Assembly (NCBI RefSeq): GCF_003063455.1 | Contig: NZ_NESN01000005.1 | Span: 99,506-131,505, forward strand | Reading direction: 5' to 3' | Source: Limnohabitans parvus II-B4 | GTDB taxonomy: Bacteria > Pseudomonadota > Gammaproteobacteria > Burkholderiales > Burkholderiaceae_C | DNA: 32,000 nt | Shown: positions 6,591 to 22,024 of the stretch, piece by piece | Layout of the letters: every line of letters starts with the position of its first letter | Numbering within the stretch: position 1 is the first letter of the stretch | Made by a program: the position numbers and the translations under genes | Notes under the pieces: generated by a model | The model's database searches: none | Told to the model about the DNA's origin: nothing | Seen by the model: the letters and a program-made list of their open reading frames with translations, nothing else

Positions 6591-7157
6591 TCAAACCATT
6601 TCCACAGCGTTGCGCTTCATGTCGTCGTTGACGTCGATGTATTTTTGGGTCACAGCAATGCTGCGGTGTCCCGCTAACTCAGCCAACACCCGCACGCCAA
6701 TGCCACGTGATGCCAGCAAAGTTATGAATGATCTCCTCATCGAATGTGAGCTGGCTCCAGCAATGCCCGCACGCTTGAACAAGTAGTGAAAGTGCTGCGC
6801 CATCACGTTGGCGCTGAAGCGCTTGCGCCCCGCAGTGATGAACAGGGGGTTGGTAGCTGGAACAAGTCCACGCAGGTCCAAGTAGGCTTGCAGTTCATCA
6901 CGAAGCTTCTGCGGCAAGAACACTGTGCGTGGATGACGTCCCTTGGTCTGCGCCGCAGTGAGGCGTATTTCTGCACGCACACTGCCATCTGTGTTGCGCA
7001 CGTCACCCACTGAGAGACTGGCGATTTCTCCTACGCGAACGCCTGACCACAAGCCTGTCAAAAACATCACTCTATTGCGCATGGCGTAGCTGCGCGGTTG
7101 GATGTATTGCAGCACTTGTTCAATTTCTGCAGGGGTCAGTGTTTTGGCTTGGCTCAT
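6591..7157 (-). CDS. Small (about 188 aa) tyrosine recombinase, catalytic domain only, FimB/FimE-like size
   Basis: Catalytic residue contexts: GVRVGEI (Arg), HSMRRSF (His-x-x-Arg), LAGHRSIAVTQKY (His and Tyr). Start chosen at MSQAKTLT by alignment with the B and C paralogs (MAQAK, MAAAK). Confidence 0.85.
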   Translation of the reverse strand: MSQAKTLTPAEIEQVLQYIQPRSYAMRNRVMFLTGLWSGVRVGEIASLSVGDVRNTDGSVRAEIRLTAAQTKGRHPRTVFLPQKLRDELQAYLDLRGLVPATNPLFITAGRKRFSANVMAQHFHYLFKRAGIAGASSHSMRRSFITLLASRGIGVRVLAELAGHRSIAVTQKYIDVNDDMKRNAVEMV

Positions 7158-7474
7158 GGTGTGTTGGGTGTTTTTCAAATCGTTGCAGTCCTTTTAGTGT
7201 GTTTGGTTTGATGTTTTTGGGCGACCAATGCCCCGAAAAAATCACGGGGCAAATTTCCGTAATGATTTCAACCAGGTAAACCTAATCGTGATTTCATTTG
7301 GTGCTGTATTTATGTCGCGCCGCATGCAAGTTGTGCGAACTGCGCTACATCTCGCCAGCGATTGCATAAAACAGCGCTGCAGCGCTTGTGCGGAGTTCCA
7401 GCTACGTGGGGTGCTGGACTGGCGTGATCGCTGCGCACAGCGCTGATTTGAGGTGTGGGCTGCTGTAGTGTGAG

Positions 7475-9151: not shown

Positions 9152-9595
9152 ATGACAGCCATTTTGAACACACTCAAATTGACCGCAGCACGCAAAACCC
9201 GTGCACTGCCCACAGTGGTCAAGCGTCGCAACAAACTCTTGATCAAACTGGGCGAGCAGCGCATGCTGGCAGATGCACAGGCGCAAGGACTGCATTACAC
9301 CCCCACACGTTACCGCTCATTCAAAGACGCTGACACTGGCGCACGCATCGCCAAACAAGTACCTGTTCGCATCAAGCCATGGTTTTGGATTGGGGAAAAG
9401 GGAGAGTGCTTGCTGGCAATCAACTACGGCAGCAAGCAAATTGAACTGCAAAAAGGAAAAACTGCCATTGACGTGGGTGACGTTGCAAACCTGTGTGCCG
9501 TGCTGGACACAGTGATTGACGCTGTGAAAAACGGTGAACTTGATCCGCAGATTGAGTCAGCCAGCGTGAAACTGCGCGAAGGCTTCAAGAAATAA
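9152..9595 (+). CDS. Conserved 147-aa integrase-associated hypothetical protein
   Basis: AAAGGAAG RBS. Near-identical paralogs at 16428-16871 and 23264-23707. Convergent with the integrase, and its 3' end overlaps the integrase 3' end. Confidence 0.8.
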   Translation: MTAILNTLKLTAARKTRALPTVVKRRNKLLIKLGEQRMLADAQAQGLHYTPTRYRSFKDADTGARIAKQVPVRIKPWFWIGEKGECLLAINYGSKQIELQKGKTAIDVGDVANLCAVLDTVIDAVKNGELDPQIESASVKLREGFKK

Positions 9596-10940: not shown

Positions 10941-11183
10941 TCAAGCGTACTGTTGTACATCGCAAATGCAACCGCGCACAAAAACGGTTGAAGCGATTAA
11001 CAGGCGTAGTCTTGCCGTGTTGTTGCCGTGCTGCACCGTGTGCATCCACGCTGATAAAAAGACATGCTGCACACTGAACAGTTGTACACCAGCAGGTTTG
11101 CAACAAGCGTCACTTTTAGGTTGGGTGAACCTTGGCGTGCTCTTTTAAACTTTTCGGAATTTTGTGAGGAAAATCAAGCATTG
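10941..11183. promoter_or_regulatory. Conserved arm between integrase start and att core (attP P-arm-like), junction A/B
   Basis: About 243 bp, conserved with 18229-18472 and 25057-25303. Two direct GTTGTACA repeats at 10952-10959 and 11081-11088, exactly 129 bp apart in all three arms. Confidence 0.55.
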
Positions 11184-12295
11184 TTGCTCTGGCTGCTGTT
11201 GCTGCCACCGGCGCTGCTTTCGCACAATCCACCGTGACTTTGTTCGGTGGCGCTGACCTGAACTACCGCTCTGTCACTTCCGGCGCGAACAAGTTCAGCG
11301 GTATGGCTCAAGACGGTATCTACTCCAGCCGTTTTGGCGTGATGGGTACTGAAGATCTGGGCGGCGGCTTGAAGGCTGGCTTCCACTTCGAAGGCGGCAT
11401 GGCTCCTGACGTCGGCACTTCAACTGGCTTCAACTTCACACGCAAGTCCACCATCGGTTTGTCCGGCGGTTTCGGTGAAGTCCGCTTCGGCCGTGACTAC
11501 ACCCCTATGTTTACGGTCGCTGGTATCGCTGATCCATTCGGCACCAACGGTGTGGGTTCTTCCTACAACGTTGCTAACGGTGTGACCTCAGATGGCGTGA
11601 TTGCTGCAGCTGGTTCATTTGCAACAGCTCAAGCTGCTGCTGCCGCAACAACACCTGCCTCCACAGTTGCAGCTGGCGCTGTTTACGCTGATCCAAACGC
11701 TGTTCGCGCTAACAACAGCATTGCTTACTACAGCCCATCTTTCAGTGGTTTCACTGTTAGCGGTATGTACAGCTTCGGTGGCGAGAACACCAACGTGGCC
11801 AAGAAAGCTGGCACTATGTCCAGCATCAAATTGGCTTACGCCAACGGTCCAGTTTCCGTTGCTTTCGGTAACCAAATCACCAAAGGTGGCGTTGCAACAA
11901 CTTCCGCTGCTGACACTGAAAAGTGGACAACCAACTTCTTGGCTGGTGCTTATGACCTGGGCGTTGCTAAGTTGAGCTTGGGTTACAAAACTGACAAGTT
12001 GTCATTTGCTGACGACGCAAGTGTGAAGTCCATGATTTACGGTGTTGCTGCTCCTATGGGTGCTGTGACTTTGAAGGCTTCTTACGTTACTGCTAAGGCT
12101 GACGGCGATAAAATGGCAAACCAGTTCGCCTTGGGTGCAGTGTATGACCTGAGCAAGCGCACTTCTGCCTACGCTACTTACTCAACTCTGAAGAACGAAG
12201 AAGGTTCTGGTAAGAGCGTTGGTTCCGCTGCAGCTAGCGATTTCACTGGCCTGCGTTCCAAAGGCTTCGAAATCGGCGTGAAGCACACTTTCTAA
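11180..12295 (+). CDS. Porin, full-length but start-less and promoter-less copy 2
   Basis: The frame is open from 11168, after an in-frame TGA at 11165-11167. It encodes ..IVALAAVAATGAAFA|QSTVTLFGG..., then GTEDLGGG, and ends GVKHTF. There is no in-frame ATG; the track ORF starts at GTG 11234, inside the mature protein. Confidence 0.8.
   Translation: MVALAAVAATGAAFAQSTVTLFGGADLNYRSVTSGANKFSGMAQDGIYSSRFGVMGTEDLGGGLKAGFHFEGGMAPDVGTSTGFNFTRKSTIGLSGGFGEVRFGRDYTPMFTVAGIADPFGTNGVGSSYNVANGVTSDGVIAAAGSFATAQAAAAATTPASTVAAGAVYADPNAVRANNSIAYYSPSFSGFTVSGMYSFGGENTNVAKKAGTMSSIKLAYANGPVSVAFGNQITKGGVATTSAADTEKWTTNFLAGAYDLGVAKLSLGYKTDKLSFADDASVKSMIYGVAAPMGAVTLKASYVTAKADGDKMANQFALGAVYDLSKRTSAYATYSTLKNEEGSGKSVGSAAASDFTGLRSKGFEIGVKHTF
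11184..11247 (+). repeat. Candidate att core copy 2
   Basis: 64/64 identical to 4173-4236. Divergence is abrupt on both sides. Confidence 0.6.
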
Positions 12296-12301
12296 TTCCC
12301 C

Positions 12302-12364
12302 GCTGGCGCAAGCCAGCTGAGAGTTAAAAGACAAAACCCACCGTGGCAACACGGTGGGTTTTTT
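12302..12364 (+). terminator. Porin terminator module, copy 2
   Basis: GCTGGC-GCAA-GCCAGC at 12302-12317. CCCACCGTG-GCAA-CACGGTGGG at 12337-12358, then TTTTTT. Confidence 0.85.
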
Positions 12365-12443
12365 ATTGGCTGAACGCTGTGCGTTGCAGTCAGCAAATAA
12401 CTGCACTCAAGGGAAAACACTGGTGCAGTGTTGGTGATGTTGC

Positions 12444-12451
12444 TGATAAAT
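12444..12451 (+). promoter_or_regulatory. Extended -10-like promoter TGATAAAT, element B
   Basis: Positional homolog of 5348-5356. Confidence 0.35.
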
Positions 12452-12485
12452 TGATAAATGTGACAACAACACATTGGAGACACAA

Positions 12486-12725
12486 ATGACAGCGACAAAT
12501 GATCCGCAACAGCAACTTGAAGAGATGATTGCTGCGCAGAAACTGCTTGAAGAACAAATCAAACAGCAACGTGAAGTTGCGCGGCAAGCAGCTTTGGAAT
12601 CAATCAAGCGTTTGTATGAGTCACATGCATTCGAATACAAAGATGTAAAAGACTTCATCAAATCAACTCCCGCTCGCAAGACAACGCCACGCAAAACAGC
12701 GACAAGAAAAAAGCGCAGCACATAA
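12486..12725 (+). CDS. Small coiled-coil protein with basic tail, element B paralog
   Basis: GGAGA RBS then ATG at 12486. Sequence MTATNDPQQQLEEMIAAQKLLEEQ...LYESHAFEYKDVKDFI...TPARKTTPRKTATRKKRST. Confidence 0.7.
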   Translation: MTATNDPQQQLEEMIAAQKLLEEQIKQQREVARQAALESIKRLYESHAFEYKDVKDFIKSTPARKTTPRKTATRKKRST

Positions 12726-12750
12726 AGGCGTTGGAAAACTGCTCAAAGAA

Positions 12751-12786
12751 AAACAGCGTCACGCTTTGTGTACGCTGTTTTTTTAT
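12751..12786. terminator. Hairpin terminator between convergent genes
   Basis: AAACAGCGT-N12-ACGCTGTTT followed by a T run on the + strand. The upstream A run could serve the minus-strand gene. Confidence 0.6.
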
Positions 12787-12803
12787 GTGTGCGTGCAATG
12801 GTG

Positions 12804-13163
12804 TCAGTTGGTGCGTGGTGCTTGGTGTGCTTTGAAAAGATTTTGCTGTGCTTTTTGCAGCTTGCTGCGTGCTTTGACTTGCTGGGCTTGTTGGTTGAGT
12901 TGTTTGGCACGGTCGCGCATGGATTTGACTTGAAGCTCTGCGGCGGACAACGGTGCGGTGGTTTCGTCAATCGCTTGTTCGCGTGCAAACGGTAGCAGGG
13001 ACAGAACATTTACTGCTCCGTACTTTTCCGCGAGCAAGATTTTGGCATGCATGAAGTCGTCAGCGAGTGTGACGATTCGAGCGGTGATGGTCAATTGGTT
13101 TTTAACAACACGAACGGTGGCAATGAATGACAGTAGTGAATGAGTAATTTCGCTGATCTTCAT
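12804..13163 (-). CDS. Hypothetical protein, 119 aa, M-x-I-x-E-I family (longer relative of the 62/63-aa proteins)
   Basis: MKISEI N-terminus. The C-terminal PLSAAELQVKSMRDRAKQLNQQAQQVKARSKLQKAQ resembles the Gln/Lys-rich tails of the A and C proteins. An ATAAAT hexamer lies 6 nt upstream of the ATG. Confidence 0.55.
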   Translation of the reverse strand: MKISEITHSLLSFIATVRVVKNQLTITARIVTLADDFMHAKILLAEKYGAVNVLSLLPFAREQAIDETTAPLSAAELQVKSMRDRAKQLNQQAQQVKARSKLQKAQQNLFKAHQAPRTN

Positions 13164-13394
13164 GCAATTATTTATCGCACTGGCACAAGTGCGGTGACTG
13201 CGCTAGCTGTGCGGTGTTGTGCTAGCGCAGTGCGTCGTGATGCGGTAGAAATTGATTGAGAAAAAATGAATGAAACAAGTGCAGCAGAGGAATGTGAAAA
13301 ATCAATTGCATCGGCGCAAGTTGCAGCGATGCGGTGCACACGAAATGAATTGGGAATATTGCACGAAAATTTGCACGGCAAAATGAATTGCAAA

Positions 13395-13700
13395 AATCAA
13401 TCTATTTGGTTTTGTTGCGAAACTATTTGGTTCTAAATAAATATCAATGAGTGACAAAAAAGAGAAGATCAATTCATAGTGTGGTTGTTTAGAGATGTGT
13501 GTGTACGAGTTTGTGTGTTTGTATGTGTGTGATGTGCAAGCAAGTGAAGCAATCGTTAATGATGTGTTGCGCTGCGCTTACACATCTGTGAGCTTCATTC
13601 GCTTCGCTCATTCGTCACAATTTTCTTCAACTGCATTTGGTCTCAATTGATGGAAGTGGGATATGTATTATTTGAAGAATTACTATATGTGTAAGACATT
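13395..13700. other. AT-rich noncoding region with iteron-like repeats and a TG-rich tract (candidate origin or control region of element B)
   Basis: CTATTTGGTT at 13402-13411 and 13423-13432, 21 bp apart. A (TG)n-like tract at about 13480-13537. No credible ORF. Confidence 0.35.
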
Positions 13701-13736
13701 TTTAATGTCGCACACAGTGCAGCATGGGAGCAGTGC

Positions 13737-15311
13737 ATGACTGCGCAAACAATCAAGCTCACAGCAAGTGACGCTGTTGCAGCAGCACTCAAACGTGCAA
13801 TGCCCAAAACAAACAAAGCGCAATTGGCATTGGCAAAGTACATCAGCGTGCTTGAGCAGCATTTGGAGCAATCGCTGCTGCACATGGATGACAACATGTA
13901 CAGGTTTTTCAGACACTTTTATGTGAGCACGCACGATTTGACGCTGCAAGTGGGGCAGTTTGTGATTGATGGCAAAAGGCAGTACTTGCACAAGTGGCTG
14001 GAGTCAAACCGTTTGAATCTTGTTGCTGTGGTTTCAACAGGACAAAAAGGCGGGGATTATTCCACGGTGCAACTGACGCGGTATGTGACCATGACTGATG
14101 CCATGGACATCAATCAATTGCGCAAGAAGACGATAAATGAATTGGATGCATTGCTCAAAGACAATTCACTGACGGATTCGGATTTCTTTTACAAGATATT
14201 TCCAGACTTTGCCGCAATGAGCAAAGCAGAAGTTGATGAAAACTACGATCTGTGTCCAGTGGATGTGGCATCACTCAAACAGTTCATTGTGTTCTTGACC
14301 AAACGAGCAAACAAGATGAACGATGTGCAGCGGCAGATGTTGGTGCGACAAGCACAAGCGATTGTGAGAATTGCACAAGCGGGCAGCAACACATTGCCCA
14401 TGAAAAAGAATCCCAGTCACTTTGGGCGCATGTACTACACGGGTGCACTGAATGTGCAATCAATTAGAACAGTGCTGCGTCATGCCATGCTGGGCGACTG
14501 CTATGAATACGACATCCGTTCAAGTGTTGTGGCATGGAAGCTGGGTTTTGCTTGGATGATTTGCGAGAAAAATGGAATCGTACCGCATGAGTTCAATGCG
14601 TCATTTGCAACTTGCTTGAGTTATTTGACGGACAAAAAAGCATTCAGAGAAACAATCAGGCAGCAGACATTTGGCGGCGGTACGCATATCAGCGCGGACA
14701 TGCAGCTGGATGTGGTCAAACAAGCACTGACTGCAATCAGCTTTGGCGCGAGAAAGACAACACAAGGTTGGATTGATCGCAGCGGCAAAGCATTTAATCC
14801 TGCAATCGTCAAAATCATTGCAGATGAGCACGCACGCAGCAACTTCTACGCTTGTGCTGAGGCAGCAGCGTATATGGACGAGAACAAGCGCATGGACGAG
14901 ATCATCACTGAGTATGCAAAAGAAAACGATCCAGCACTGCTCGCAGACACCGAACTGCAAACAGCATCAGGACGAATAAGCAAAAGCAAATTGATGTCGT
15001 TCTTGTATCAACAGTCAGAGTCAATTGTGATGGACATTGTTCGCAGAGAAGTTGGTGCGGTTTACAAAACAGTTTTGGCGAACGTGCATGATGCCATTTA
15101 CATCAATGAGCGGCTGCACAGTGCAGACAAGAAACGAATTGAACTGCTGATGCGCAGAGAAACGGGATTGCAGTTTTGGTATTTGGATGAAGAAAAAATT
15201 ACGGGCTACAAAGGTATTTCTGACGAAGTGCGCAAGGCAGAGCTGGCACACAAGGCGTTGATTGCGCAGCAAGAACAGTTGGCAAAGAGCTACGTGCCCA
15301 AAAACTTCTGA
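13737..15311 (+). CDS. 524-aa protein with family-A (PolI/T7-like) polymerase palm-and-fingers-like motifs; candidate minimal polymerase
   Basis: GGGAG RBS. FGRMYYTGALNVQSIRTVLRHAM...CYEYDIRSSVVAWKL resembles TGRLSS-PNLQNIP-IRxAF-DYSQIELRVLAH. KQALTAISFGARK resembles motif B (AKxINFG). ANVHDAIYI resembles motif C (QVHDE). Confidence 0.45.
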   Translation: MTAQTIKLTASDAVAAALKRAMPKTNKAQLALAKYISVLEQHLEQSLLHMDDNMYRFFRHFYVSTHDLTLQVGQFVIDGKRQYLHKWLESNRLNLVAVVSTGQKGGDYSTVQLTRYVTMTDAMDINQLRKKTINELDALLKDNSLTDSDFFYKIFPDFAAMSKAEVDENYDLCPVDVASLKQFIVFLTKRANKMNDVQRQMLVRQAQAIVRIAQAGSNTLPMKKNPSHFGRMYYTGALNVQSIRTVLRHAMLGDCYEYDIRSSVVAWKLGFAWMICEKNGIVPHEFNASFATCLSYLTDKKAFRETIRQQTFGGGTHISADMQLDVVKQALTAISFGARKTTQGWIDRSGKAFNPAIVKIIADEHARSNFYACAEAAAYMDENKRMDEIITEYAKENDPALLADTELQTASGRISKSKLMSFLYQQSESIVMDIVRREVGAVYKTVLANVHDAIYINERLHSADKKRIELLMRRETGLQFWYLDEEKITGYKGISDEVRKAELAHKALIAQQEQLAKSYVPKNF

Positions 15312-15642
15312 GTGTTGCGTTTGACTCACACTGCTGCAACAAAATATTATTGCGATTCAACTTAGAAAGTTGCATTGCACTTTGCGCTGCGCTGCTAGAC
15401 TTGTTTAAACAAGCTGTGCTGCGTTATTTTTGAAAATGCATACGCGGTATGCTGAGTGAGCCGTTAAGGGTTTGTGCGCTGTTTTGCGCAATCGCAGACC
15501 AAGTGAAATTACACTAATATTTGGTTTTGCAAAAAGGCAATACATTCGTACAAGTTTCAGGTGTGATTGTTTTGGTTGTCCGCGTAGATGTTTGGTTGCA
15601 CACTTGCATTGAATAAATATTTGATAGCAAGGAGTGGCAAAT

Positions 15643-16242
15643 ATGGCGCAAGCAAAGGTACTGACACAAGATGAAGTTGAACGAGTGATGCAATATCTCG
15701 GCAAGAAGCAGCACGCAATGAGAAACCAAGCAATGTTCTTGTTGACGCACGGATGTGGCGTGCGCATCAAAGAGTTGGTCAGCATGCGTATCTGTGATGT
15801 GTTGGAACGCAACGGCGATATCAAGCAAGAAGTCAATCTCAACAGAAACCAAACCAAGGGCGCTCGTGGGCGCACTGTGTATCTGGCTGACAAAATGCGT
15901 GATGTGATTCGCAACTATTTGCGCGAAAAATTTGGTGTGCAGGATTTATTGGCTGTGACCATGTCAAACACAAGTCGCGCACTGTTTGCTACGCAAAAGA
16001 GCGCTGACCGTGGGTTTTCTGCATCAACTGGCTGTCAAATGTTTCACTACTGGTACAAGGACTGTGACATTGTTCATGGCAGCAGTCACAGTGGTCGTCG
16101 TTCATTCATTACGAATTTGGCGAACAAAGGCGTGGCGATTCATGTGTTGAAAGAGTTGGCAGGACACAGATCTATTGTGGTCACCGAAAAGTACATTGCA
16201 AAGAATCCAACGGTGCTGCACGCAAGTGTCAACATGCTGTAA
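15643..16242 (+). CDS. Small (about 199 aa) tyrosine recombinase, element B paralog, on the opposite strand relative to A and C
   Basis: AAGGAG RBS. MAQAKVLTQDEVERVMQYL. Catalytic contexts GVRIKEL (Arg), HSGRRSF, LAGHRSIVVTEKY. Confidence 0.85.
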   Translation: MAQAKVLTQDEVERVMQYLGKKQHAMRNQAMFLLTHGCGVRIKELVSMRICDVLERNGDIKQEVNLNRNQTKGARGRTVYLADKMRDVIRNYLREKFGVQDLLAVTMSNTSRALFATQKSADRGFSASTGCQMFHYWYKDCDIVHGSSHSGRRSFITNLANKGVAIHVLKELAGHRSIVVTEKYIAKNPTVLHASVNML

Positions 16243-16264
16243 AAATACCATCTGCGTTTTTGCT

Positions 16265-16312
16265 GCAAATGTTGGTGCAGTTGTTGGTGCAAATGTTGGT
16301 GCAGTTGTTGGT
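16265..16312. repeat. Tandem repeat, 2 x 24 bp (4 x 12 bp GCA[AG][AT]TGTTGGT)
   Basis: GCAAATGTTGGTGCAGTTGTTGGT occurs twice back to back. An imperfect hairpin GTCATTTAAAG-N5-CTTTAATGAC follows. Confidence 0.8.
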
Positions 16313-16427
16313 GTCATTTAAAGCGACACTTTAATGACCCGCAATACTGAACGGAATTCGGTTGCTCACCCGTGGTGGTTGGGCACAAAATTGTCTGTGC
16401 TTTACAAACATTCGAAAGGAAAAGCAC

Positions 16428-16871
16428 ATGACAGCCATTCTGAACACATTGAAGTTGACTGCAGCCCGCAAGACACGTGCACTGCCTGACGTTGTCAAAC
16501 GCCGCAACAAGCTGCTGATTAAATTGGGCGAGCAGCGCATGTTGGCAGCTGCACAGGCGCAAGGGCAGCACTACACGCCCACACGCTTTCGCTCATTCGC
16601 AGATGCTGACACTGGTGCACGGGTTGTTAAACAAGTGCCTGTTCGCATCAAGCCGTGGTTTTGGACTGGAGAGAAGGGCGAGTGTTTGCTGGCTATCAAC
16701 TATGGCAGCAAGCAAATTGAACTGCAAAAGGGCAAGACTGCCATCGATGTTGGTGCAGTTGAGAACATATGCGCAGTCTTGGACACGGTGATTGATGCTG
16801 TGCGCAATGGTGAACTGGACACGCAGATTGAAAGTGCCAGTGTAAAACTGCGCGATGGATTCAAGAAATAA
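16428..16871 (+). CDS. Conserved 147-aa integrase-associated hypothetical protein, element B
   Basis: AAAGGA RBS then ATG at 16428. MTAILNTLKLTAARKTRALP... is nearly identical to 9152-9595. Confidence 0.8.
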   Translation: MTAILNTLKLTAARKTRALPDVVKRRNKLLIKLGEQRMLAAAQAQGQHYTPTRFRSFADADTGARVVKQVPVRIKPWFWTGEKGECLLAINYGSKQIELQKGKTAIDVGAVENICAVLDTVIDAVRNGELDTQIESASVKLRDGFKK

Positions 16872-18228
16872 CTGTGTGTGATAACTGGCTGTGCTGACGA
16901 GTACGGCGACTTTGCAGCATGCCAATGTTCTGCTCGCCCGTTACGGTGCTGGCGTAGTGCTGGTTGATCATGTCCACACTGGTACGTGCATTGCGTGCCA
17001 GTGTCAGCAAGTCAATGCCTTGTCCGTAGAGCAAGCGAAACGTGATGCTTGAATGGCGTAGGCTGTACAAGCTGCGCTCTTGTCCATGCGCACCCAGCTT
17101 TAATCCAGTGCGTGCCAATACCCAGTTGAAATAAAAGCTCAGCACCCAGTGCGCATAGGCGCGGTCACGCAGGTGCGGTAGAAACAAGTAGTCGTCTGGT
17201 GCAGCAAGGTTCCGTGCGCTGTGGTGTTGGGTCAGCTGCTGGTAAATGCGAACAGCAGGTTGTAGCGTGACGATGGGACGAGTGTGGCTTTTGGTTTTGG
17301 GTAGGTTCAGGCGCAGGTAGGTATTGCCGTTACGCACCACTTCCACGTGTCTGTGCTTGAGTGTTTTGAGGTCGCTTGGGCGTATGAAGCTGTTGACCAT
17401 AAAACCTATGACCCATGCAACATCTGGCGGCATGGTGTACTCAGCTGAGCGCAAGCGATAGCTTTTGCGCAGTGTGCTGTCGCTGTCAGGGTGTCGTGTG
17501 TTTTGCAGCTTGCGAGCAGTGCGCATGATCTGCCAGTACTCTGTGGGCGTGAATGCGCCGCGCGAGTTGGTTTGCACTCGAACTTTGGGAAACTCTGGCA
17601 ACTTGTCCAGCGCATTCACTGCCACAGCCAGTGTCAATATTTTGCGCACTGCAACCAAGTACTGGCTGACGGTGATGGTGGAAAAGCTCTTGCTCAGGTA
17701 CTGCGTGAATGCCAGCAGCTGTGCGTGGTCAATGTCCTCTGGTCGTTGTTTACCCCAGCGCGGCAAGATGTGTGCATCCAGTCTGTTGCGCAGAACTTTC
17801 AAGCTGCCTGAACTAAACTCGCCGCGCTCAACACGGGCATGCTCGTTTGTGAGCATCTGCGCTGCCATTGCAGCAAAGGTCAGCTGTGGTTTGACTGCGG
17901 TGATGTGAGAAACGACACAGGATGTTGATGTTGGTGTTGGCTCAGTGCGCAAACTGGCAGACTGCGCTAGCAATTGTTCATAAAAGTCACGTGCAAAGCT
18001 TTGTGCCATGCGCAGACTTTGCGTTTGTGTGCTGCGTCTGTGTGTACGTCCCGCAATCCAGCAGCGCACTTGCCAAAACTTGCTGGCAGCTATTTTGAAC
18101 ACTGATAGTTTGCGGGGATAACCTGGCACTGGTGTGATGGTTGTAGGAATGGGCACTGTGCGCTCACGTGCTTGAGTGCGCAGAACTGGGTCGTTGGCTG
18201 CGGCTGCGGTAAAAACGGTATGCATCAC
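16861..18228 (-). CDS. Tyrosine-type site-specific integrase (455 aa), element B
   Basis: Highly similar to 9585-10940 along the whole length, with the same catalytic contexts. Confidence 0.9.
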   Translation of the reverse strand: MMHTVFTAAAANDPVLRTQARERTVPIPTTITPVPGYPRKLSVFKIAASKFWQVRCWIAGRTHRRSTQTQSLRMAQSFARDFYEQLLAQSASLRTEPTPTSTSCVVSHITAVKPQLTFAAMAAQMLTNEHARVERGEFSSGSLKVLRNRLDAHILPRWGKQRPEDIDHAQLLAFTQYLSKSFSTITVSQYLVAVRKILTLAVAVNALDKLPEFPKVRVQTNSRGAFTPTEYWQIMRTARKLQNTRHPDSDSTLRKSYRLRSAEYTMPPDVAWVIGFMVNSFIRPSDLKTLKHRHVEVVRNGNTYLRLNLPKTKSHTRPIVTLQPAVRIYQQLTQHHSARNLAAPDDYLFLPHLRDRAYAHWVLSFYFNWVLARTGLKLGAHGQERSLYSLRHSSITFRLLYGQGIDLLTLARNARTSVDMINQHYASTVTGEQNIGMLQSRRTRQHSQLSHTVIS

Positions 18229-18472
18229 TCAAGCGTACTGTTGTACATCGCAAATGCAACCGCGCACAAAAACGGTTGATGCGTTTTACAGGCGCAGTCT
18301 TGCCGTGTCGTTGCCGTGCTGCACCGTTCGCATCCACATTGATAAAAAGACATGCAGCACACTTGCAAGTTGTACGCCAGCAGGTGTGCAACAAGCGTCA
18401 CTTTTAGGTTGGAAAAACCTTGGCGTGCTCTTGCGAACTTTTCGGATGCTCTAAGGAAAAATTAAGCTTTTG
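18229..18472. promoter_or_regulatory. Conserved arm, junction B/C
   Basis: GTTGTACA at 18240-18247 and GTTGTACG at 18369-18376, 129 bp apart. Conserved TGCAACAAG follows. Confidence 0.55.
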
Positions 18473-19581
18473 TTGCTCTGGCTGTTTTGACAGCTTCTGG
18501 CATTTCTTTCGCTCAATCTTCCGTGAGCATTTACGGTCGCCTTGATGTTGGCATGAACAACCAAAAGACAACTGGTACCACCACTATTGGTAGTGCTTCA
18601 ACTTCTACCTTTTACAAAGGCAACAACCTTGTGAATGAAGACGGTCTGTCGACAGGTCTCCTGGGCTTCAAGGGCACTGAAGACTTGGGCGGTGGCTTGA
18701 AGGCCAACTTCGTCCACGAAATGGACTTGGACTTGGACGTTGGCGCACTGGGCGTTGCCGCTGGTCGTGATTCAACTCTGGGCTTGTCTGGTGGTTTCGG
18801 CGAAATTCGCTTGGGCCGTTCATACACGCCTTTGTACTCCACCATTGGTGCCTCAGACGTTTTTGGCACAACAGGTGCTGGCACGGTCAACCAGTTCGGT
18901 ATGGCAGCTAATGCAGTTCGTGCTTCCAATGCATTCTTCTATGCATCACCTTCATTCAGCGGTTTGACCGTTCGCTTGATGGCCCAGCAAAACAATGCAC
19001 AAACAAACGCATCTGTTGGCGGAGCTGGTAAAACATCTGGCAACGGTTTTTCTGTGACCTACGCAGCAGGTCCTTTGATGTTGGCAGCAGCTACAGGCAC
19101 TGAAAAAGGTTCTTCTATTGACCGCGCTGGAGCCTTGTTCGCAGCAACTGCTGCAGCTGCAACTACAGCAGGAACAGCAACAGCAAACGCTAATGCCAAG
19201 TACACAGGTTCTGCCATTTCTGGTCAGTACGACATGGGTGTTGCCAAGTTCTTTGTTGGTTACACAACCACCAAGGATGACAACGACACGTCCGTTGCTG
19301 GCGGCGAGTTGACTATGAAAGAAACCAACTTTGGTGTTGCCGTACCAATGGGTGCATTGACATTGATGGCTGCTGTTGGCAACAACAAAGGTTCTATGGC
19401 AGGTGAACCAGTCACTGCCAAAGGTACTGACATGGCTGTTGGTGCAACCTATGCTTTGAGCAAGCGCACCACTGCTTACTTCAAGACTGGTACTTACAAC
19501 AAGTACAAAGCTTCTGATGTTGGTGGTTCTGAAGAAGTTAAGACAACCCGTACCAGCGTTGGCCTGCGTCACCTTTTCTAA
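18466..19581 (+). CDS. Porin, full-length but start-less and promoter-less copy 3 (most divergent)
   Basis: The frame is open from 18466, after an in-frame TAA at 18463-18465. It encodes AFVALAVLTASGISFA|QSSVSIYG..., then GTEDLGGG, and ends GLRHLF. The only candidate starts (TTG 18487, CTG) would give a signal peptide with no charged N-region. Confidence 0.8.
   Translation, partial: AFVALAVLTASGISFAQSSVSIYGRLDVGMNNQKTTGTTTIGSASTSTFYKGNNLVNEDGLSTGLLGFKGTEDLGGGLKANFVHEMDLDLDVGALGVAAGRDSTLGLSGGFGEIRLGRSYTPLYSTIGASDVFGTTGAGTVNQFGMAANAVRASNAFFYASPSFSGLTVRLMAQQNNAQTNASVGGAGKTSGNGFSVTYAAGPLMLAAATGTEKGSSIDRAGALFAATAAAATTAGTATANANAKYTGSAISGQYDMGVAKFFVGYTTTKDDNDTSVAGGELTMKETNFGVAVPMGALTLMAAVGNNKGSMAGEPVTAKGTDMAVGATYALSKRTTAYFKTGTYNKYKASDVGGSEEVKTTRTSVGLRHLF
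18473..18484 (+). repeat. Candidate att core copy 3 (12-bp TTGCTCTGGCTG)
   Basis: This 12-mer is the only stretch shared perfectly by all four porin 5' ends. Confidence 0.5.
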
Positions 19582-19587
19582 TCCCCT

Positions 19588-19656
19588 GCTGTCGTAAGAC
19601 AGCTTGAGATTTCGAAGAAATAAAAAACCCACCGTGGCAACACGGTGGGTTTTTTT
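19588..19656 (+). terminator. Porin terminator module, copy 3
   Basis: GCTGTC-GTAA-GACAGC at 19588-19603, with a compensatory G:C to T:A change relative to the other copies. CCCACCGTG-GCAA-CACGGTGGG at 19628-19649, then TTTTTTT. Confidence 0.85.
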
Positions 19657-19774: not shown

Positions 19775-20059
19775 ATGTCGGCAGAAAAACTTGATCCACG
19801 TGCAGCATTGGCAAAGATGGAAGCGGACGAAAAGTTGGCACGTGATGCTGCAGAAAATTTAAAAGTAGAAAATCAAAAGAAACGGAAAGAGTTGTTGGCG
19901 AGTTTGAAAGAAGCGGACTTGGCTGATGTGCGTGAGAAATGTAAATTGCACGGATTCAACGCAACAGACCTGCGCGGCTATTTGAAAGTAAAGGGGGCTA
20001 AAACTGCAACGCCTCGAAAAAGTACAGCAAAGAAAACCACAACTAAAAAAGCTTCATAA
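19775..20059 (+). CDS. Small coiled-coil protein with basic tail, element C paralog
   Basis: GGAG RBS then ATG at 19775. Sequence MSAEKLDPRAALAKMEADEKLARD...KCKLHGFNATDLRGYL...TPRKSTAKKTTTKKAS. Confidence 0.7.
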   Translation: MSAEKLDPRAALAKMEADEKLARDAAENLKVENQKKRKELLASLKEADLADVREKCKLHGFNATDLRGYLKVKGAKTATPRKSTAKKTTTKKAS

Positions 20060-20102: not shown

Positions 20103-20990
20103 GTGCGTAGTGTGGTTGCGAGAATATTGGAACTTGAATACATCAACTACAGCATTCCACAACGCTTTGACACAGCAACTGACACGGTAGAAGACAGCAA
20201 CGGGCTTCGTGTGTGGATTGATTTTGAAGCAGAGCAACGTGCTGCAGACAGCGAAGTAGCAGATGAAGTAGCCGCTGCTGCGCTGACATGGCAGTTCAAG
20301 GATGAACTAACTGCTGATGAGTACAACAGGCTCGCGCTGCTGAACAAACTGCTGACGCAGCAACTGAACGGCAAGACTGTAGGCAAAGCTACGATTGAAC
20401 GAGCACTGATGGGAGGTGAGTTTGCTGACTACGAACACAGTTTGACGCAGCCAATTACATCAGCAGAGTTGCTCTACGCTGAAGGCGTGCCTGATGTGCT
20501 CAAACGCTACAACATCAAGTTGCGTGAAGCAGACTTCCAGTACAACAAGTACGAGCGGCTGGCAGACTTGAAAAGTGTTGGACGTGCGAATTACAAACGC
20601 GACACACTATCTAAAACGTACAACAAGTCAGAACACTTGTATGAACTCGCACTGGAATACTTGCAGGAGCAGATTGAGCTGTCGCAGCAAAATGGAGAAG
20701 GTGACAGGTTGACGCGATGGCTTGACCGTGACGTTGACTTTACTACGGCAGGAAATCTTGGTATTGATGTTGACGGAGTGCCGCGAGTTAAAGGCAGCAC
20801 CAGTCACTACGCACTTGACGCTGGTTTGCCCAAGCTCAGTGTGCGCTTAAAGCGTGAACAATGTGTGCTGCAGAGCTTGCTGCGTGCCGCAGTAGCGTGT
20901 GCGTATGTGCCAGAAGTTGTTGCAGTGGTGCAGGTGCAGCCAAAGTTGAAGACGCTTGACATGAGCAAGCTACATCCAGAGCGTGATTAA
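20103..20990 (+). CDS. Hypothetical protein, 295 aa (paralog of 5673-6581)
   Basis: Shared sequence blocks with the element A protein. The GTG start at 20103 lies inside the 9-bp-stem hairpin CACTACGCA-N8-TGCGTAGTG (20087-20112). Confidence 0.65.
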   Translation: MRSVVARILELEYINYSIPQRFDTATDTVEDSNGLRVWIDFEAEQRAADSEVADEVAAAALTWQFKDELTADEYNRLALLNKLLTQQLNGKTVGKATIERALMGGEFADYEHSLTQPITSAELLYAEGVPDVLKRYNIKLREADFQYNKYERLADLKSVGRANYKRDTLSKTYNKSEHLYELALEYLQEQIELSQQNGEGDRLTRWLDRDVDFTTAGNLGIDVDGVPRVKGSTSHYALDAGLPKLSVRLKREQCVLQSLLRAAVACAYVPEVVAVVQVQPKLKTLDMSKLHPERD

Positions 20991-21559
20991 ACCAACTCAA
21001 CAGCACGGCGTTTGACGTCATCGTTGACTGAAACATAACGCTGCGTTGTTGTGATGCTCTTATGCCCCGCCAGTGCAGCAAGTACGAACACTGACACGCC
21101 TTTGCCAGCCAATGAAGTCAGGAAAAATTTGCGACCACTGTGTGAACTTGCACCTTTGATGCCTGCATTCCTGTACATCCAGTAAAAATACTGTGTCAAT
21201 GTGTTGGCACTGAATGGACGGCGTGGACCGCGATGTGTTGTGAACAAGGGCTGCTCAATGTCAATCCATTTGCGTGAGTGAATATACGCAGCAAGTTCAG
21301 TGCACAGCAGGTTGTTTAAGAACACAGTGCGAGCGTGTCCGTGTTTGACGCGATGTGCTGCCAGTAGAACTTCGCTGCGCAGCGTGCCATCGTTGTCCAG
21401 CACATCGCTCAGTTTCAAATCAGCAACTTCGCTCACACGCATGCCTGCGTTGGTTGTGAGTAAGAACATCATGCGATTGCGTACTGCGTTGGCGTTGACT
21501 GCGATGTACGCAAGTGCTCGTTCAATTTCTGCATGTGTCAATGATTTTGCTGCTGCCAT
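20987..21559 (-). CDS. Small (about 190 aa) tyrosine recombinase, element C paralog
   Basis: GGAGA RBS then ATG at 21559 (MAAAKSLTHAEIERALAYI). Catalytic contexts GMRVSEV, HSGRKFF, LAGHKSITTTQRY. The longer track ORF (to 21688) is an upstream extension. Confidence 0.85.
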   Translation of the reverse strand: MAAAKSLTHAEIERALAYIAVNANAVRNRMMFLLTTNAGMRVSEVADLKLSDVLDNDGTLRSEVLLAAHRVKHGHARTVFLNNLLCTELAAYIHSRKWIDIEQPLFTTHRGPRRPFSANTLTQYFYWMYRNAGIKGASSHSGRKFFLTSLAGKGVSVFVLAALAGHKSITTTQRYVSVNDDVKRRAVELV

Positions 21560-22024
21560 GTTGTTCTCCAAATAATGTTGCTGATTTAAGTATGTTGTCT
21601 TTGGTGCTGGTTGGACAAGAAAAACCTGATGTATTGGCGGTGTATTGGTGATCTGTTGAATAACAAGCGGTTGTTGTGCCGTCCACACAGTTCATGCATT
21701 CTCTTATCTCGTGTATTTATTCATCGCACTGTGCAGTTGAGCAGCGTTTGACGTGCAAGCAGGTGCAGACTGCGTAAAACGCCCTACAGCGCACTGACAG
21801 CAGCGCCAGCATCGCAACGGGCAAGGCGCACCAAACGAACGCTTGTGCGTTGGATTTGACGTGCTGCTGCGTGTTGCTGCCCAAATCTCATCTGCTGCCA
21901 CAAAAAATCTGCTGCGTAATTTCTGCGTGGTTGCGAGATCTCGATTGTTGGTGATTTGCTCTAACACTGGTGTTGAACAAGAGTGTGGTCATACTTTCGT
22001 ATGACCTGTGTTGTTCTGTGCTGT

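What the first reader, a model, noticed from the sequence alone, without database searches (positions are those of the whole stretch)
13737..15311. Minimal (524 aa) family-A-polymerase-like protein in element B, in place of the 302-aa protein and structured-element module of A and C
The protein shows an ordered set of motifs that resemble PolI/T7-type polymerases:
- FGRMYY..LNVQSI..LRHAM then YEYDIRSSVVAW, compared with TGRLSS-PNLQNIP-IRxAF-DYSQIELRVLAH (pre-motif A and motif A)
- KQALTAISFG, compared with motif B AKxINFG
- NVHDAIYI, compared with motif C VHDE

I see no exonuclease domain. An AT-rich region with iteron-like repeats lies just upstream. If real, element B encodes its own very small polymerase, which would imply an episomal replicative phase. 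It would also mean the A/C and B central regions are alternative replication modules.
Basis: inference. Interest (0 to 1): 0.65.

Follow-up and report, generated by a model that had tools for sequence, protein, structure and literature searches.

The report
Minimal exonuclease-less PolA-like polymerase on island
A small integrated mobile element in a freshwater betaproteobacterium carries a real, strongly conserved 524-residue enzyme with the catalytic core of DNA polymerase I and no proofreading domain; it belongs to a large, so far unnamed branch of the polymerases that mobile elements and viruses use to start copying their own DNA.

Summary
The ORF (13737-15311 +, 524 aa) is real and under strong purifying selection. 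An AlphaFold model (pLDDT 83) matches only family-A DNA polymerases among its top 50 PDB hits. A 120-sequence family profile aligns to a PolA polymerase-domain profile at 93% probability (E = 3.6e-7). The predicted active-site residues are essentially invariant: R231, D259, K328, F336/G337, Q425, H451/D452. There is no exonuclease domain.

The closest known class is TV-Pol, the transposon/virus minimal A-family polymerases, whose one characterized member (SCCmec CCPol) is a primase-polymerase. The family here is unannotated, has about 823 clusters at 50% identity, and occurs in integrase islands of freshwater Burkholderiales and, more distantly, in tailed phages.

It differs from Pol I and CCPol in three ways. 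It lacks the steric-gate Glu, the motif C Glu and the O-helix Arg. It also has no helicase or SSB partner.

The extensions are weaker. The upstream region is AT-rich and conserved, but it is not an iteron array. No episomal form was found. The 302-aa protein of elements A and C is mutually exclusive with the polymerase, but its function is unknown.

The parts
13737..15311 (+). Gene for the 524-aa exonuclease-less family-A-like (TV-Pol-like) polymerase
   Evidence: ORF; 312+ homologs; 823 clusters at 50% identity; AF2 pLDDT 83; Foldseek top 50 PDB hits all family-A DNA polymerases; hhalign to PolA profile 93%, E=3.6e-7; dN/dS 0.07-0.09
13737..14126 (+). N-terminal mixed alpha/beta domain (aa 1-130), variable across the family; no conserved acidic residues, so not an active exonuclease
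   Evidence: Secondary structure of the model; many distant representatives align only from about aa 140-165 onward; the only >=90% conserved N-terminal positions are M1 and Y35
14133..14381 (+). Helical region (aa 133-215) ending in two long helices, the probable thumb
   Evidence: Model helices H177-189 and H196-215 directly precede the Arg hairpin; assignment by analogy to the TV-Pol/PolI topology described in PMC2579912 (inference)
14391..14438 (+). Beta-hairpin carrying FGRxYY with R231 (equivalent to E. coli Pol I R668 in TGRLSS)
   Evidence: Strands E219-226 and E232-234; R231 120/120; aligned to R668 by hhalign
14469..14540 (+). LRxA helix (R248) and motif A strand ending in catalytic D259, then DIRSSVVAWK; position D+5 is Val/Ala rather than the steric-gate Glu
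   Evidence: E255-260 followed by H263-278; D259 119/120, R248 120/120, position 264 is V80/A30/S6/E1. hhalign mis-registers this short strand, so D259=D705 is inferred from topology and invariance
14694..14753 (+). O-helix / motif B: K328 (=K758) and F336-G337 (=Y766-G767); no Arg at the R754-equivalent position 324
   Evidence: H320-335; K328 119/120, F336 and G337 120/120, position 324 variable; register from the profile-profile alignment
14982..15059 (+). Helix with YQxxE: Q425 (=Q849) and invariant E428
   Evidence: H416-441; Q425 119/120, E428 120/120; aligned to Q849
15072..15104 (+). Motif C hairpin VHDA: H451-D452 (=H881-D882); the E883-equivalent is Ala/Gly
   Evidence: E446-450 and E453-456; H451 and D452 120/120, position 453 is A95/G14/C6/S4; aligned to VHDE
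13164..13736 (.). AT-rich intergenic region upstream of the polymerase gene with blocks conserved in close relatives; candidate promoter/operator and possibly origin
   Evidence: GC 40.7%; invariant 25-35 nt blocks in four loci whose proteins are 75-80% identical; upstream AT-richer than the gene in 74 of 79 loci
13399..13432 (+). Two ATTTGGTT boxes 21 bp apart, the only clear direct repeat conserved in the clade
   Evidence: D12; conserved in L001, L008, L009 and L105
13695..13709 (.). Palindrome GACATTTTTAATGTC inside an invariant block about 30 nt upstream of the start codon; likely operator
   Evidence: Sequence; invariant block GAAGAATTACTATATGTGTAAGACATTT in four loci
15634..16242 (+). 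Short (202 aa) catalytic-domain-only tyrosine recombinase, directly downstream of the polymerase in this clade
   Evidence: PF00589 E=1e-26; Xer/Fim-type NCBIfam hits; present in 49 of 84 polymerase loci and in elements A and C
16362..16871 (+). DUF6641 protein (likely start at 16428), an island backbone gene
   Evidence: PF20346; phrog_31551; next to the polymerase in 61 of 84 loci but absent from phage contigs and present in polymerase-less A and C
16861..18228 (-). Large (455 aa) tyrosine integrase of element B
   Evidence: Weak Phage_int_M/SAM_5 and PHROG integrase hits; three paralogous copies in the window
12474..12725 (+). Small protein with a coiled-coil N-terminus and basic tail at the left end of the island (counterparts in A and C)
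   Evidence: 82% identical homolog in L001
12804..13163 (-). 119-aa protein of unknown function, part of the B-type centre
   Evidence: homologs in L001, L008, L010
12327..12364 (.). Terminator hairpin after the porin gene, repeated at every island junction; probable att core region
   Evidence: Four copies (D10); terminator-like

Best explanation
The gene encodes an active, exonuclease-less nucleotide polymerase of the family-A (Pol I) lineage. It belongs to the class of minimal polymerases carried by transposons, islands and viruses (TV-Pol-like).

Shown: it has the palm/fingers/thumb fold of Pol I. It retains the primer-terminus Arg hairpin, both metal-binding Asp residues, the O-helix Lys and aromatic-Gly pair, and the Q and H minor-groove residues. 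It is under strong purifying selection. It sits in the core of small tyrosine-integrase islands of freshwater Burkholderiales, and distant relatives sit in tailed phages.

Inferred: after the island is excised as a circle by its integrase, this enzyme starts DNA synthesis on the element. It most likely acts as a primase-polymerase, as shown for the SCCmec TV-Pol CCPol. Initiation may occur at the conserved AT-rich region just upstream of its own gene, after which the host helicase and replisome take over, since the island encodes no helicase. The short second tyrosine recombinase could then resolve multimers.

The active site lacks the steric-gate Glu and the motif C Glu and has Phe at the Tyr766/Tyr639 position. 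This suggests relaxed sugar selectivity, meaning it may be able to start with or incorporate ribonucleotides. This too is inference.
For: Fold: AF2 model pLDDT 83. Foldseek against PDB gives 31 hits at E<=1e-3 and a top 50 made up entirely of family-A DNA polymerases: Taq, Klenow, Bst, apicoplast Pol, DpoZ, Pol theta. In BFVD the best annotated matches are virophage TVpol-helicase proteins (Zamilon, E=2.3e-8, rmsd 4.5-6 A over about 335 columns), ahead of phage PolA. Sputnik V13-type proteins are defined as TVpol fusions in PMC2579912 and PMC3671162.

Sequence: hhalign of the 120-member family profile against an 8-member PolA polymerase-domain profile gives 93% probability, E=3.6e-7 over 201 columns. 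It pairs R231=R668, K328=K758, F336G337=Y766G767, Q425=Q849 and H451D452=H881D882. Reference numbering was verified on real sequences.

Conservation: these residues are 119-120 of 120, and dN/dS is 0.07-0.09.

Context: integrase, short recombinase and DUF6641 are neighbours in 84 loci, with a resolvase neighbour in L004. Relatives occur on phage contigs with terminase, portal, capsid and tail genes.

Precedent: CCPol is a TV-Pol that is an active polymerase and, with a partner, a primase for SCCmec replication (PMC7581432). The gene is displaced by another gene on an otherwise shared backbone.
Against: No direct evidence of replication or of a free circular form. Every recovered context is integrated and there are no plasmid or cultured-phage hits. 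No helicase, OB-fold/SSB partner or recognisable initiator is encoded in the island. The polymerase-less sister islands A and C keep the same backbone, so the polymerase is not required for island maintenance. The upstream repeats are too few to call an iteron origin. Plain HMMER profiles see no PolA relationship, and the motif A strand is mis-registered in the hhalign alignment. Primase activity in CCPol needs a partner protein that has no evident counterpart here.
Confidence: 0.6

Rival explanations
1. It is a DNA polymerase used for something other than element replication. Examples are repair or damage-tolerance synthesis that benefits the host or island, or gap filling linked to integration and excision. 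It would then be cargo or an accessory rather than a replication initiator.
For: No helicase, SSB or initiator partner in the island. Only integrated copies were seen. Sister islands do without it. Island-encoded primase-polymerases with repair roles are reported (title and abstract of PMC9751324). Diverged phage PolAs have been suggested to act in repair (PMC11348598).
Against: It occupies the conserved core of very small (6-12 kb) islands rather than a variable cargo slot. The upstream non-coding blocks are conserved with it. Its nearest structural relatives are virophage replication proteins. The only characterized relative functions in element replication (PMC7581432).
Confidence: 0.17
2. 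It is a minimal single-subunit RNA polymerase, or a strictly RNA-primer-making primase, descended from the PolA/T7 lineage. It would transcribe element genes or make RNA primers.
For: Position D259+5 is Val/Ala rather than the steric-gate Glu (E710 in Pol I, Gly in T7 RNAP). Motif C is HD[A/G], like T7 RNAP HDS and unlike HDE in DNA polymerases. The TV-Pol paper places the class near the split between DNA and RNA polymerases.
Against: No T7-like RNAP appears among the top 50 PDB fold matches. hhalign to an equally built profile of 8 phage single-subunit RNAP catalytic regions is insignificant (E=0.05, 1%), against E=3.6e-7 and 93% for PolA. At 524 aa it has no promoter-recognition N-terminal domain or specificity loop. 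The Tyr639-equivalent is Phe, which does not favour rNTP selection (established T7 RNAP Y639F biochemistry, from my own knowledge).
Confidence: 0.1
3. It is the effector or sensor of an unrecognised anti-phage defence or inter-element conflict system carried by the island, making DNA or an oligonucleotide product in response to infection.
For: Small integrase islands often carry defence cargo. In distant loci the neighbours include a zeta-toxin/AAA_33-like protein. p119 has a weak PADLOC hit (PDC-S62, E=8e-4).
Against: The polymerase, DUF6641, p302 and the short recombinase have no PADLOC match. Relatives are encoded by tailed phages themselves. The gene pairs with recombinases rather than with nucleases or other effectors.
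Confidence: 0.07
4. The resemblance is superficial: the protein is not a polymerase, or is an inactive polymerase-like scaffold.
For: No Pfam, NCBIfam, PHROG or PDB sequence hit. TM-scores to Pol I are only about 0.35. The O-helix Arg and the motif C Glu are missing.
Against: All 50 top fold hits belong to one enzyme family. The profile-profile match is significant and collinear over five motifs. Every residue needed for metal binding and primer-terminus contact is 119-120 of 120 conserved, which is not expected of a pseudoenzyme.
Confidence: 0.04

Closest known systems
TV-Pol (transposon-virus polymerase) family, Iyer, Abhiman & Aravind 2008 (PMC2579912); includes the N-terminal domain of Sputnik V13-type virophage replication proteins
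   Same: A 400-600 aa minimal family-A catalytic core with no nuclease domain or nuclease linkage. Thumb helices, a beta-hairpin with an invariant Arg, two palm Asp and a fingers Lys. Standalone form in mobile elements with lambda-type integrases or resolvases, and also in phages. Virophage TVpol proteins are the best annotated structural matches.
   Different: Only the Lys of the defining RxxxK fingers motif is conserved. The N-terminal domain is mixed alpha/beta rather than the all-helical TV-PolN domain described. There is no D5/S3 helicase fusion or neighbour. A sequence-profile link to a presumed founding member (Ma-LMM01 MAP_030) is only borderline (E=9e-4), and I could not confirm that gene's identity as a TV-Pol.
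CCPol-MP-Cch2 primase/helicase module of SCCmec and the Pol-SSB pairs of Bacillota islands (PMC7581432, PMC10061031)
   Same: An exonuclease-less A-family polymerase encoded in the conserved core of a chromosomally integrated island that inserts at a fixed gene end and forms tandem arrays. The two catalytic Asp residues are required there and conserved here.
   Different: CCPol is recognisably PolA by sequence (15-22% identity, 'PolA' domain call) and keeps the steric-gate Glu and Phe762; this family does not. CCPol works with an OB-fold partner and a helicase encoded immediately downstream. Here the downstream genes are a short tyrosine recombinase or DUF6641, and there is no helicase. The recombinase type also differs (tyrosine versus large serine), as do the hosts (Burkholderiales versus Bacillota).
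Bacterial DNA polymerase I polymerase domain / phage PolA (Pfam PF00476)
   Same: Same fold and the same collinear motif set: R668, D705, K758, Y766-G767, Q849, H881-D882 equivalents.
   Different: No 5'-3' or 3'-5' exonuclease. No PF00476 hit even at E<=10. E710, R754 and E883 equivalents are absent. About 330-aa conserved core with a shorter link between the LRxA helix and motif A.
divPolA1/divPolA2 diverged phage PolAs (PMC11348598)
   Same: Highly diverged PolA-like proteins detected mainly by structure, lacking an active exonuclease, with an altered or replaced thumb or N-terminal domain.
   Different: Those occur in 80+ kb phages alongside a regular replicative polymerase.

Membership tests
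Family A DNA polymerase (Pol I-like polymerase domain) | Right-hand palm/fingers/thumb fold of the Pol I type | tested here: met
   AF2 model pLDDT 83. Foldseek top 50 PDB hits are all family-A DNA polymerases, best E=3.8e-5, probability 1.00.
Family A DNA polymerase (Pol I-like polymerase domain) | Sequence-profile match to the family (Pfam PF00476 or equivalent) | tested here: inconclusive
   No PF00476 hit at E<=10 and no PDB hit by hmmsearch. However, hhalign profile-profile to 8 PolA polymerase domains gives 93% probability, E=3.6e-7.
Family A DNA polymerase (Pol I-like polymerase domain) | Two catalytic Asp (motif A D705, motif C D882 in E. coli numbering) | tested here: met
   D259 119/120 and D452 120/120. 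D452 is aligned to D882. D259=D705 is inferred from the strand-Asp-helix topology because hhalign mis-registers that strand.
Family A DNA polymerase (Pol I-like polymerase domain) | Motif B O-helix RxxxKxxxFxxxYG | tested here: not met
   K328 and F336-G337 are conserved and aligned to K758 and Y766-G767. The R754-equivalent (position 324) is variable and the F762-equivalent is Thr.
Family A DNA polymerase (Pol I-like polymerase domain) | Template-directed DNA synthesis | not testable with these tools
   Needs a biochemical assay.
TV-Pol (PMC2579912) | Minimal 400-600 aa polymerase core with no nuclease domain or nuclease gene linkage | tested here: met
   524 aa. No conserved acidic N-terminal residues. 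No nuclease among neighbours.
TV-Pol (PMC2579912) | [quoted passage not shown] | tested here: met
   Hairpin E219-226/E232-234 with R231 120/120. D259 and D452 as above.
TV-Pol (PMC2579912) | Fingers module with a conserved Asp and an RxxxK motif | tested here: not met
   Only one basic residue (K328) on the helix in either possible register. D299 is only 60/120.
TV-Pol (PMC2579912) | Residence in mobile elements or viruses next to a lambda-type integrase, gamma-delta resolvase, transposase or D5-like helicase | tested here: met
   Integrase and short tyrosine recombinase. Resolvase in L004/L005. Tailed-phage contigs. No D5 helicase seen.
TV-Pol (PMC2579912) | Detectable sequence relationship to founding members (Sputnik V13, SCCmec CCPol, Ma-LMM01, Brucella elements) | tested here: inconclusive
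   Founding sequences were not retrievable. The presumed Ma-LMM01 member MAP_030 family gives hhalign E=9e-4, 22%, and that family is itself not verifiable as PolA-like. By structure, virophage TVpol proteins are the best annotated hits.
CCPol-MP(SSB)-helicase primase module (PMC7581432, PMC10061031) | Operon of polymerase, small OB-fold ssDNA-binding partner, then helicase | tested here: not met
   Downstream genes are a tyrosine recombinase and DUF6641. No helicase in the island. DUF6641 also occurs without the polymerase (A, C) and is absent from phage contigs. The fold of DUF6641 was not determined.
CCPol-MP(SSB)-helicase primase module (PMC7581432, PMC10061031) | Conservation of the Pol I ribonucleotide-discriminating residues (E710, F762) | tested here: not met
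   Equivalents are V/A264 and T332.
T7-like single-subunit RNA polymerase | Sequence or fold closer to RNAP than to DNAP; promoter-binding N-terminal domain and specificity loop | tested here: not met
   hhalign to the RNAP profile E=0.05, 1%. No RNAP in the top 50 fold hits. The protein is only 524 aa.

The most novel reading that the evidence does not exclude
This is a distinct, previously unnamed branch of the PolA/TV-Pol lineage, with about 823 clusters at 50% identity in abundant freshwater Burkholderiales and their phages. On this reading it works as a self-sufficient origin-specific initiator-primase. A single ~330-aa catalytic core plus a variable N-terminal domain would recognise the conserved AT-rich region next to its own gene and start synthesis de novo, without a dedicated helicase or SSB partner. 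Its RNAP-like active-site substitutions (no steric-gate Glu, HD[A/G], Phe at the Tyr position) would let it begin with ribonucleotides. That would make it a functional intermediate between Pol I-type DNA polymerases and T7-type RNA polymerases.
Probability: 0.25. Interest if true: 0.75.

Novelty: new member of a known kind. Interest (0 to 1): 0.5.

Why it matters

This family is large, entirely unannotated and invisible to Pfam, NCBIfam and PHROGs. It occurs in some of the most abundant freshwater bacterioplankton (Limnohabitans, Polynucleobacter and relatives) and in their phages. Its active site departs from Pol I at exactly the positions that govern sugar selection.

Naming it would fix hundreds of 'hypothetical protein' calls and would flag a class of tiny tandem integrase islands as potentially self-replicating. 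It would also provide a compact, partner-less candidate for testing how A-family enzymes acquire de novo initiation. If it simply turns out to be another TV-Pol, it remains a useful annotation but not a surprise.

Tried and rejected
1. Single-sequence and HMMER-profile searches found nothing meaningful. This covers Pfam, PHROGs, NCBIfam and PADLOC, PDB sequences, and a local hmmsearch against Pol I, T7 DNAP, T7 RNAP and Ma-LMM01 ORFs. The weak Birnavirus RdRp palm hit (E=0.014, aa 153-219) lies outside the catalytic region and was dismissed.

2. Sputnik (EU606015) is not in the collections, and the TV-Pol paper's supplement with gene identifiers is not held. I guessed Ma-LMM01 MAP_030 (506 aa, next to IS605-type transposases) as its TV-Pol. 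Its family shares a collinear motif set with this one, but the statistics are borderline and it is not itself demonstrably PolA-like. That lead is left as inconclusive.

3. DUF6641 as a CCPol-MP-like obligate partner was rejected. It is present in polymerase-less islands and absent from phage contigs.

4. Identifying the 302-aa protein of A and C failed. It gives a confident helical model but has no structural neighbour (best E=1.2) and no family hits.

5. The search for episomal forms found none. L014 (10.4 kb stand-alone record) has no terminal overlap. Three 13-15 kb metagenomic contigs are chromosomal. There are no plasmid or cultured-phage matches.

6. Iterons: repeat families upstream of the gene are no larger than in shuffles across 41 loci.

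7. Rfam found nothing in element B.

8. The conserved C-terminal YxPKNF tail is clade-specific (2 of 120).

9. Single-sequence hhalign against Klenow suggested the register K328=R754. The profile-profile alignment supports K328=K758 instead.
Full report
**1. Observation**

The ORF at 13737-15311 (+) is exactly as described: ATG start, 524 aa, with a GGGAG box 7 nt upstream. All quoted motifs are present.

The gene is clearly real.
- It has more than 312 homologs in the 90%-clustered protein collection, nearly all 510-535 aa and all unannotated.
- An exhaustive profile search of 1.84 billion representatives finds 823 clusters at 50% identity.
- dN/dS against two relatives is 0.07-0.09.

**2. 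Setting**

- a Porin_4 gene followed by a shared terminator hairpin;
- a small protein with a coiled-coil and a basic tail;
- a variable centre;
- DUF6641;
- a ~450-aa tyrosine integrase on the minus strand.

B is 76-86% identical in nucleotides to A and C at 12298-12479 and 16384-18465, and unrelated at 12480-16383. The B centre holds a 119-aa ORF (minus strand), a 573-bp AT-rich spacer, the polymerase gene and a 202-aa catalytic-domain-only tyrosine recombinase. A and C also carry a short recombinase, on the other strand, but have a 302/295-aa protein where B has the polymerase.

**3. What the protein is**

Single-sequence and HMMER-profile searches are blank: Pfam, PHROGs, NCBIfam, PADLOC and PDB sequences. 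Structure and profile-profile comparison are decisive.

*Fold.* An AlphaFold2 model built on 27 homologs has mean pLDDT 83. In Foldseek against the PDB, all 50 top matches are family-A DNA polymerases: Taq, Klenow, Bst, apicoplast Pol, DpoZ, G20c Pol I and Pol theta. 31 hits have E<=1e-3, and the best is 3.8e-5. TM-scores are modest (~0.35), as expected when domains are missing and subdomain angles differ.

*Viral structures.* In the BFVD library the three best hits are uncharacterized Caudovirales proteins of 400-547 aa (E down to 1.9e-28, 25% identity). Virophage and polinton-like-virus 'DNA replication' or 'helicase/primase/polymerase' proteins follow (Zamilon E=2.3e-8, rmsd 4.5-6 A over ~335 columns), and ordinary phage PolA comes only after those.

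*Sequence.* I built a 120-sequence alignment of diverse representatives. I also built a reference profile of eight PolA polymerase domains: E. coli Pol I 520-928, T7 gp5 and six phage enzymes. hhalign gives 93% probability and E=3.6e-7 over 201 columns. An equally built profile of eight T7-like RNAP catalytic regions gives E=0.05 and 1% probability.

**4. Active site**

I checked the reference numbering on the real sequences. The profile-profile alignment gives these pairs, with conservation in the 120 representatives:

| This protein | E. coli Pol I | Motif | Conservation |
|---|---|---|---|
| R231 | R668 | FGRxYY vs TGRLSS | 120/120 |
| K328 | K758 | O-helix | 119/120 |
| F336-G337 | Y766-G767 | O-helix | 120/120 each |
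| Q425 | Q849 | YQxxE helix | 119/120 |
| H451-D452 | H881-D882 | motif C | 120/120 each |
| D259 | D705 (inferred) | motif A | 119/120 |

D259 sits at the end of predicted strand 255-260, immediately before helix 263-278. That is the strand-Asp-helix arrangement of D705. hhalign places a gap there and mis-registers this short strand, so D259=D705 rests on topology and invariance rather than on the alignment.

Three positions differ systematically from Pol I:
- The steric-gate Glu (E710, D+5) is Val/Ala: 110 of 120, with Glu once.
- The motif C Glu (E883) is Ala/Gly/Cys/Ser.
- The O-helix Arg (R754) has no conserved counterpart.

The first two differences resemble T7 RNAP (Gly542, Ser813).

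The N-terminal ~130 residues form a mixed alpha/beta domain with no conserved acidic residues. This domain varies or is absent in distant members, whose matches begin at about residue 140-165. There is therefore no exonuclease, and the conserved core is about 330 residues.

**5. Distribution and context**

Eighty-one genomic loci were recovered from the species-representative genome set, 79 of them distinct. They come from Limnohabitans, Polynucleobacter, Rhodoferax, Comamonadaceae, Oxalobacteraceae and other freshwater Burkholderiales. Contigs reach 2.4 Mb, and some genomes hold several copies.

Across the 84 loci held at that point, neighbours were as follows:

| Neighbour | Loci |
|---|---|
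| DUF6641, usually immediately downstream | 61 |
| Short recombinase | 49 |
| Large integrase within 8 kb | 24 |

One lineage sits next to a serine resolvase. Fourteen IMG/VR loci carry relatives at 25-31% identity. The two whose neighbours I scanned against PHROGs are genuine tailed phages: L088 has terminase, portal and major head genes, and L100 has tail genes. No helicase or primase neighbour was recognised.

DUF6641 is not found on those phage contigs, and it is present in polymerase-less islands. It is therefore island backbone, not an obligate polymerase partner. There is no match in cultured-phage or plasmid collections and none to defence-system models.

**6.

*(a) Upstream region.* The spacer 13164-13736 is 40.7% GC against 52% for the window. 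Upstream regions are AT-richer than the gene in 74 of 79 loci.

In the window's clade, ~340 bp upstream are strikingly conserved, with invariant 25-35-nt blocks. These include two ATTTGGTT boxes 21 bp apart and the palindrome GACATTTTTAATGTC.

Repeat content is only mildly above shuffles (k=10 with one mismatch: 40 pairs against 17 +/- 7). Across 41 loci the largest repeat family is 2-3 copies, the same as in shuffles. The region is a conserved cis-acting element, either promoter/operator or possibly an origin. It is not a classical iteron array.

*(b) Episomal phase.* This is not shown.
- Three further 13-15 kb metagenomic contigs are chromosomal.
- A 10.4 kb stand-alone record (L014) has no terminal overlap.

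*(c) Alternative modules.* The displacement pattern is real.
- None of the 84 polymerase loci contains a p302 homolog.
- Three p302-bearing contigs, plus A and C, share the backbone of small protein, short recombinase, DUF6641 and integrase next to a porin gene, and all lack the polymerase.

However, p302 has no detectable family and no structural neighbour (best Foldseek E=1.2). It does have 227+ homologs, a confident helical model at pLDDT 87, and an invariant PRVxGSxS...GLPKLS motif. Whether it is a replication protein cannot be said.

**7. Comparison with what is known**

Iyer, Abhiman and Aravind (2008, PMC2579912) defined TV-Pol as follows:
- 400-600-residue minimal family-A cores with no nuclease;
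- thumb helices, an Arg-bearing hairpin, two palm Asp, and a fingers HTH with RxxxK;
- found in bacterial mobile elements with lambda-type integrases, resolvases or transposases, or fused or linked to D5-like helicases in viruses such as Sputnik.

They predicted primase-polymerase activity. Yutin et al. (PMC3671162) confirm the TVpol-S3H architecture of virophage V13-type proteins.

The only characterized member, SCCmec CCPol, is an active exonuclease-less polymerase. It becomes a primase when bound to a small OB-fold partner, and it works with the Cch2 helicase at an iteron-containing origin (PMC7581432, PMC10061031).

The protein here meets most TV-Pol criteria: size, absence of a nuclease, the hairpin Arg, the two Asp, the mobile-element context, and its best annotated structural neighbours.

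It fails the RxxxK criterion, since only the Lys is present. Its N-terminal domain is not the all-helical TV-PolN. It lacks the helicase and SSB partners.

I could not obtain bona fide founding sequences to test membership by sequence. My guess at the Ma-LMM01 member (MAP_030) gave only a borderline link (E=9e-4) and could not itself be verified.

I therefore file it as a new, unannotated member of a known kind: TV-Pol-like minimal A-family polymerases of mobile elements. Whether it is a distinct branch remains open.

**8. Mechanism**

*Shown:* an intact, conserved Pol I-type active site in a protein encoded in the core of small integrase islands and in phages.

*Inferred:*
- After integrase-mediated excision, the enzyme initiates DNA synthesis on the circular island, by analogy with CCPol. 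It probably acts as a primase-polymerase at or near the conserved AT-rich region upstream of its gene.
- The host helicase and replisome then continue synthesis.
- The short Xer/Fim-like recombinase may resolve multimers.
- The missing steric-gate and motif C Glu residues, together with Phe336, suggest relaxed rNTP/dNTP discrimination.

*Rivals,* with my estimates:

| Rival | Estimate |
|---|---|
| Non-replicative repair or gap-filling polymerase | 0.17 |
| Minimal RNA polymerase or RNA primase | 0.10 |
| Defence-related polymerase | 0.07 |
| Not an active polymerase | 0.04 |

**9. Verdict**

The replication-biology extensions are plausible but unproven, and the kind of enzyme is already known.

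Interest is moderate. The family is large, ecologically prominent and completely unannotated, and its active site has unusual features. It is not a conceptual surprise.

Noticed in passing
window 3959-5200, ~11160-12295, 18487-19581, 25300-26244 (porins); hairpins at 5234-5271, 12327-12364, 19618-19655, 26278-26315: Each of the three tandem islands is separated by a complete, divergent Porin_4 gene that ends in the same terminator hairpin. Integrase-to-porin adjacency recurs in L001, L013, L104 and L107. The islands either carry a porin gene as cargo or target porin 3' ends, which could diversify outer-membrane porins (phage receptors or nutrient channels).
   Followed up: partly
window 5673-6581 (+) and 20103-20990 (+): The 302/295-aa proteins of elements A and C (33% identical to each other) belong to a family of 227+ unannotated homologs. 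They give a confident, mostly helical AF2 model (pLDDT 87) with an invariant PRVxGSxS...GLPKLS motif, yet have no structural neighbour in the PDB (best E=1.2) and no family hit. This is an orphan fold that is mutually exclusive with the polymerase.
   Followed up: partly
window 15634-16242 (+), 6591-7178 (-), 20987-21688 (-): Every island, whether polymerase-type or p302-type, encodes a second, short (~195-233 aa) tyrosine recombinase made of the catalytic domain only (best matches XerC/D and Fim-type invertases), in addition to the ~450-aa integrase. Possible multimer resolvase, invertase or directionality factor.
   Followed up: partly
window 12480-18465 versus L001 and L013: Element B is a mosaic. 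Its polymerase is 80% identical to L001's but its integrase only 59%, whereas L013 has an integrase at 77% and DUF6641 at 79% but a polymerase at 37%. In close relatives DUF6641 lies divergently upstream of the polymerase; in B that copy is gone, and a downstream copy 86% identical in nucleotides to element A's is present. This suggests recombination between array neighbours.
   Followed up: partly
window 16362-16871 (+), 9152-9595 (+), 23264-23707 (+): DUF6641 (also phrog_31551, unknown function) is a constant backbone gene of these islands, and no paper in the library mentions it. Its fold and role are unknown.
   Followed up: partly
window 12474-12725 (+), ~5390-5626 (+), ~19775-20056 (+): The first gene of each island encodes a ~80-93-aa protein with a coiled-coil N-terminus and a Lys/Arg/Thr/Pro-rich tail reminiscent of histone H1 or AT-hook tails. 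Possibly a nucleoid-associated or anti-silencing factor.
   Followed up: no
window 1196-1257 (-): Rfam RF02278, Betaproteobacteria toxic small RNA, 54.1 bits (gathering score 50), E=2.2e-8. It lies outside the islands.
   Followed up: no
L014 (OZ248410.1, 10,397 bp): A stand-alone 10.4 kb record in a long-read Burkholderiaceae assembly carries the polymerase, DUF6641 and the short recombinase, with no hit to the large integrase. It could be an excised circle or just a short contig; there is no terminal overlap to decide.
   Followed up: partly
L088, L094, L096, L100 (IMG/VR contigs): Relatives of the polymerase at 25-31% identity are encoded by 26-42 kb viral contigs; the two scanned, L088 and L100, carry tailed-phage genes. 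The gene sits between the tail and terminase modules with no recognisable helicase or primase nearby, so it may be these phages' only replication protein.
   Followed up: partly
window 15291-15311 (aa 518-524): The extreme C-terminus Y-x-P-K-N-F is conserved in the close clade but not family-wide (2 of 120). It may be a clade-specific partner-binding tail.
   Followed up: yes
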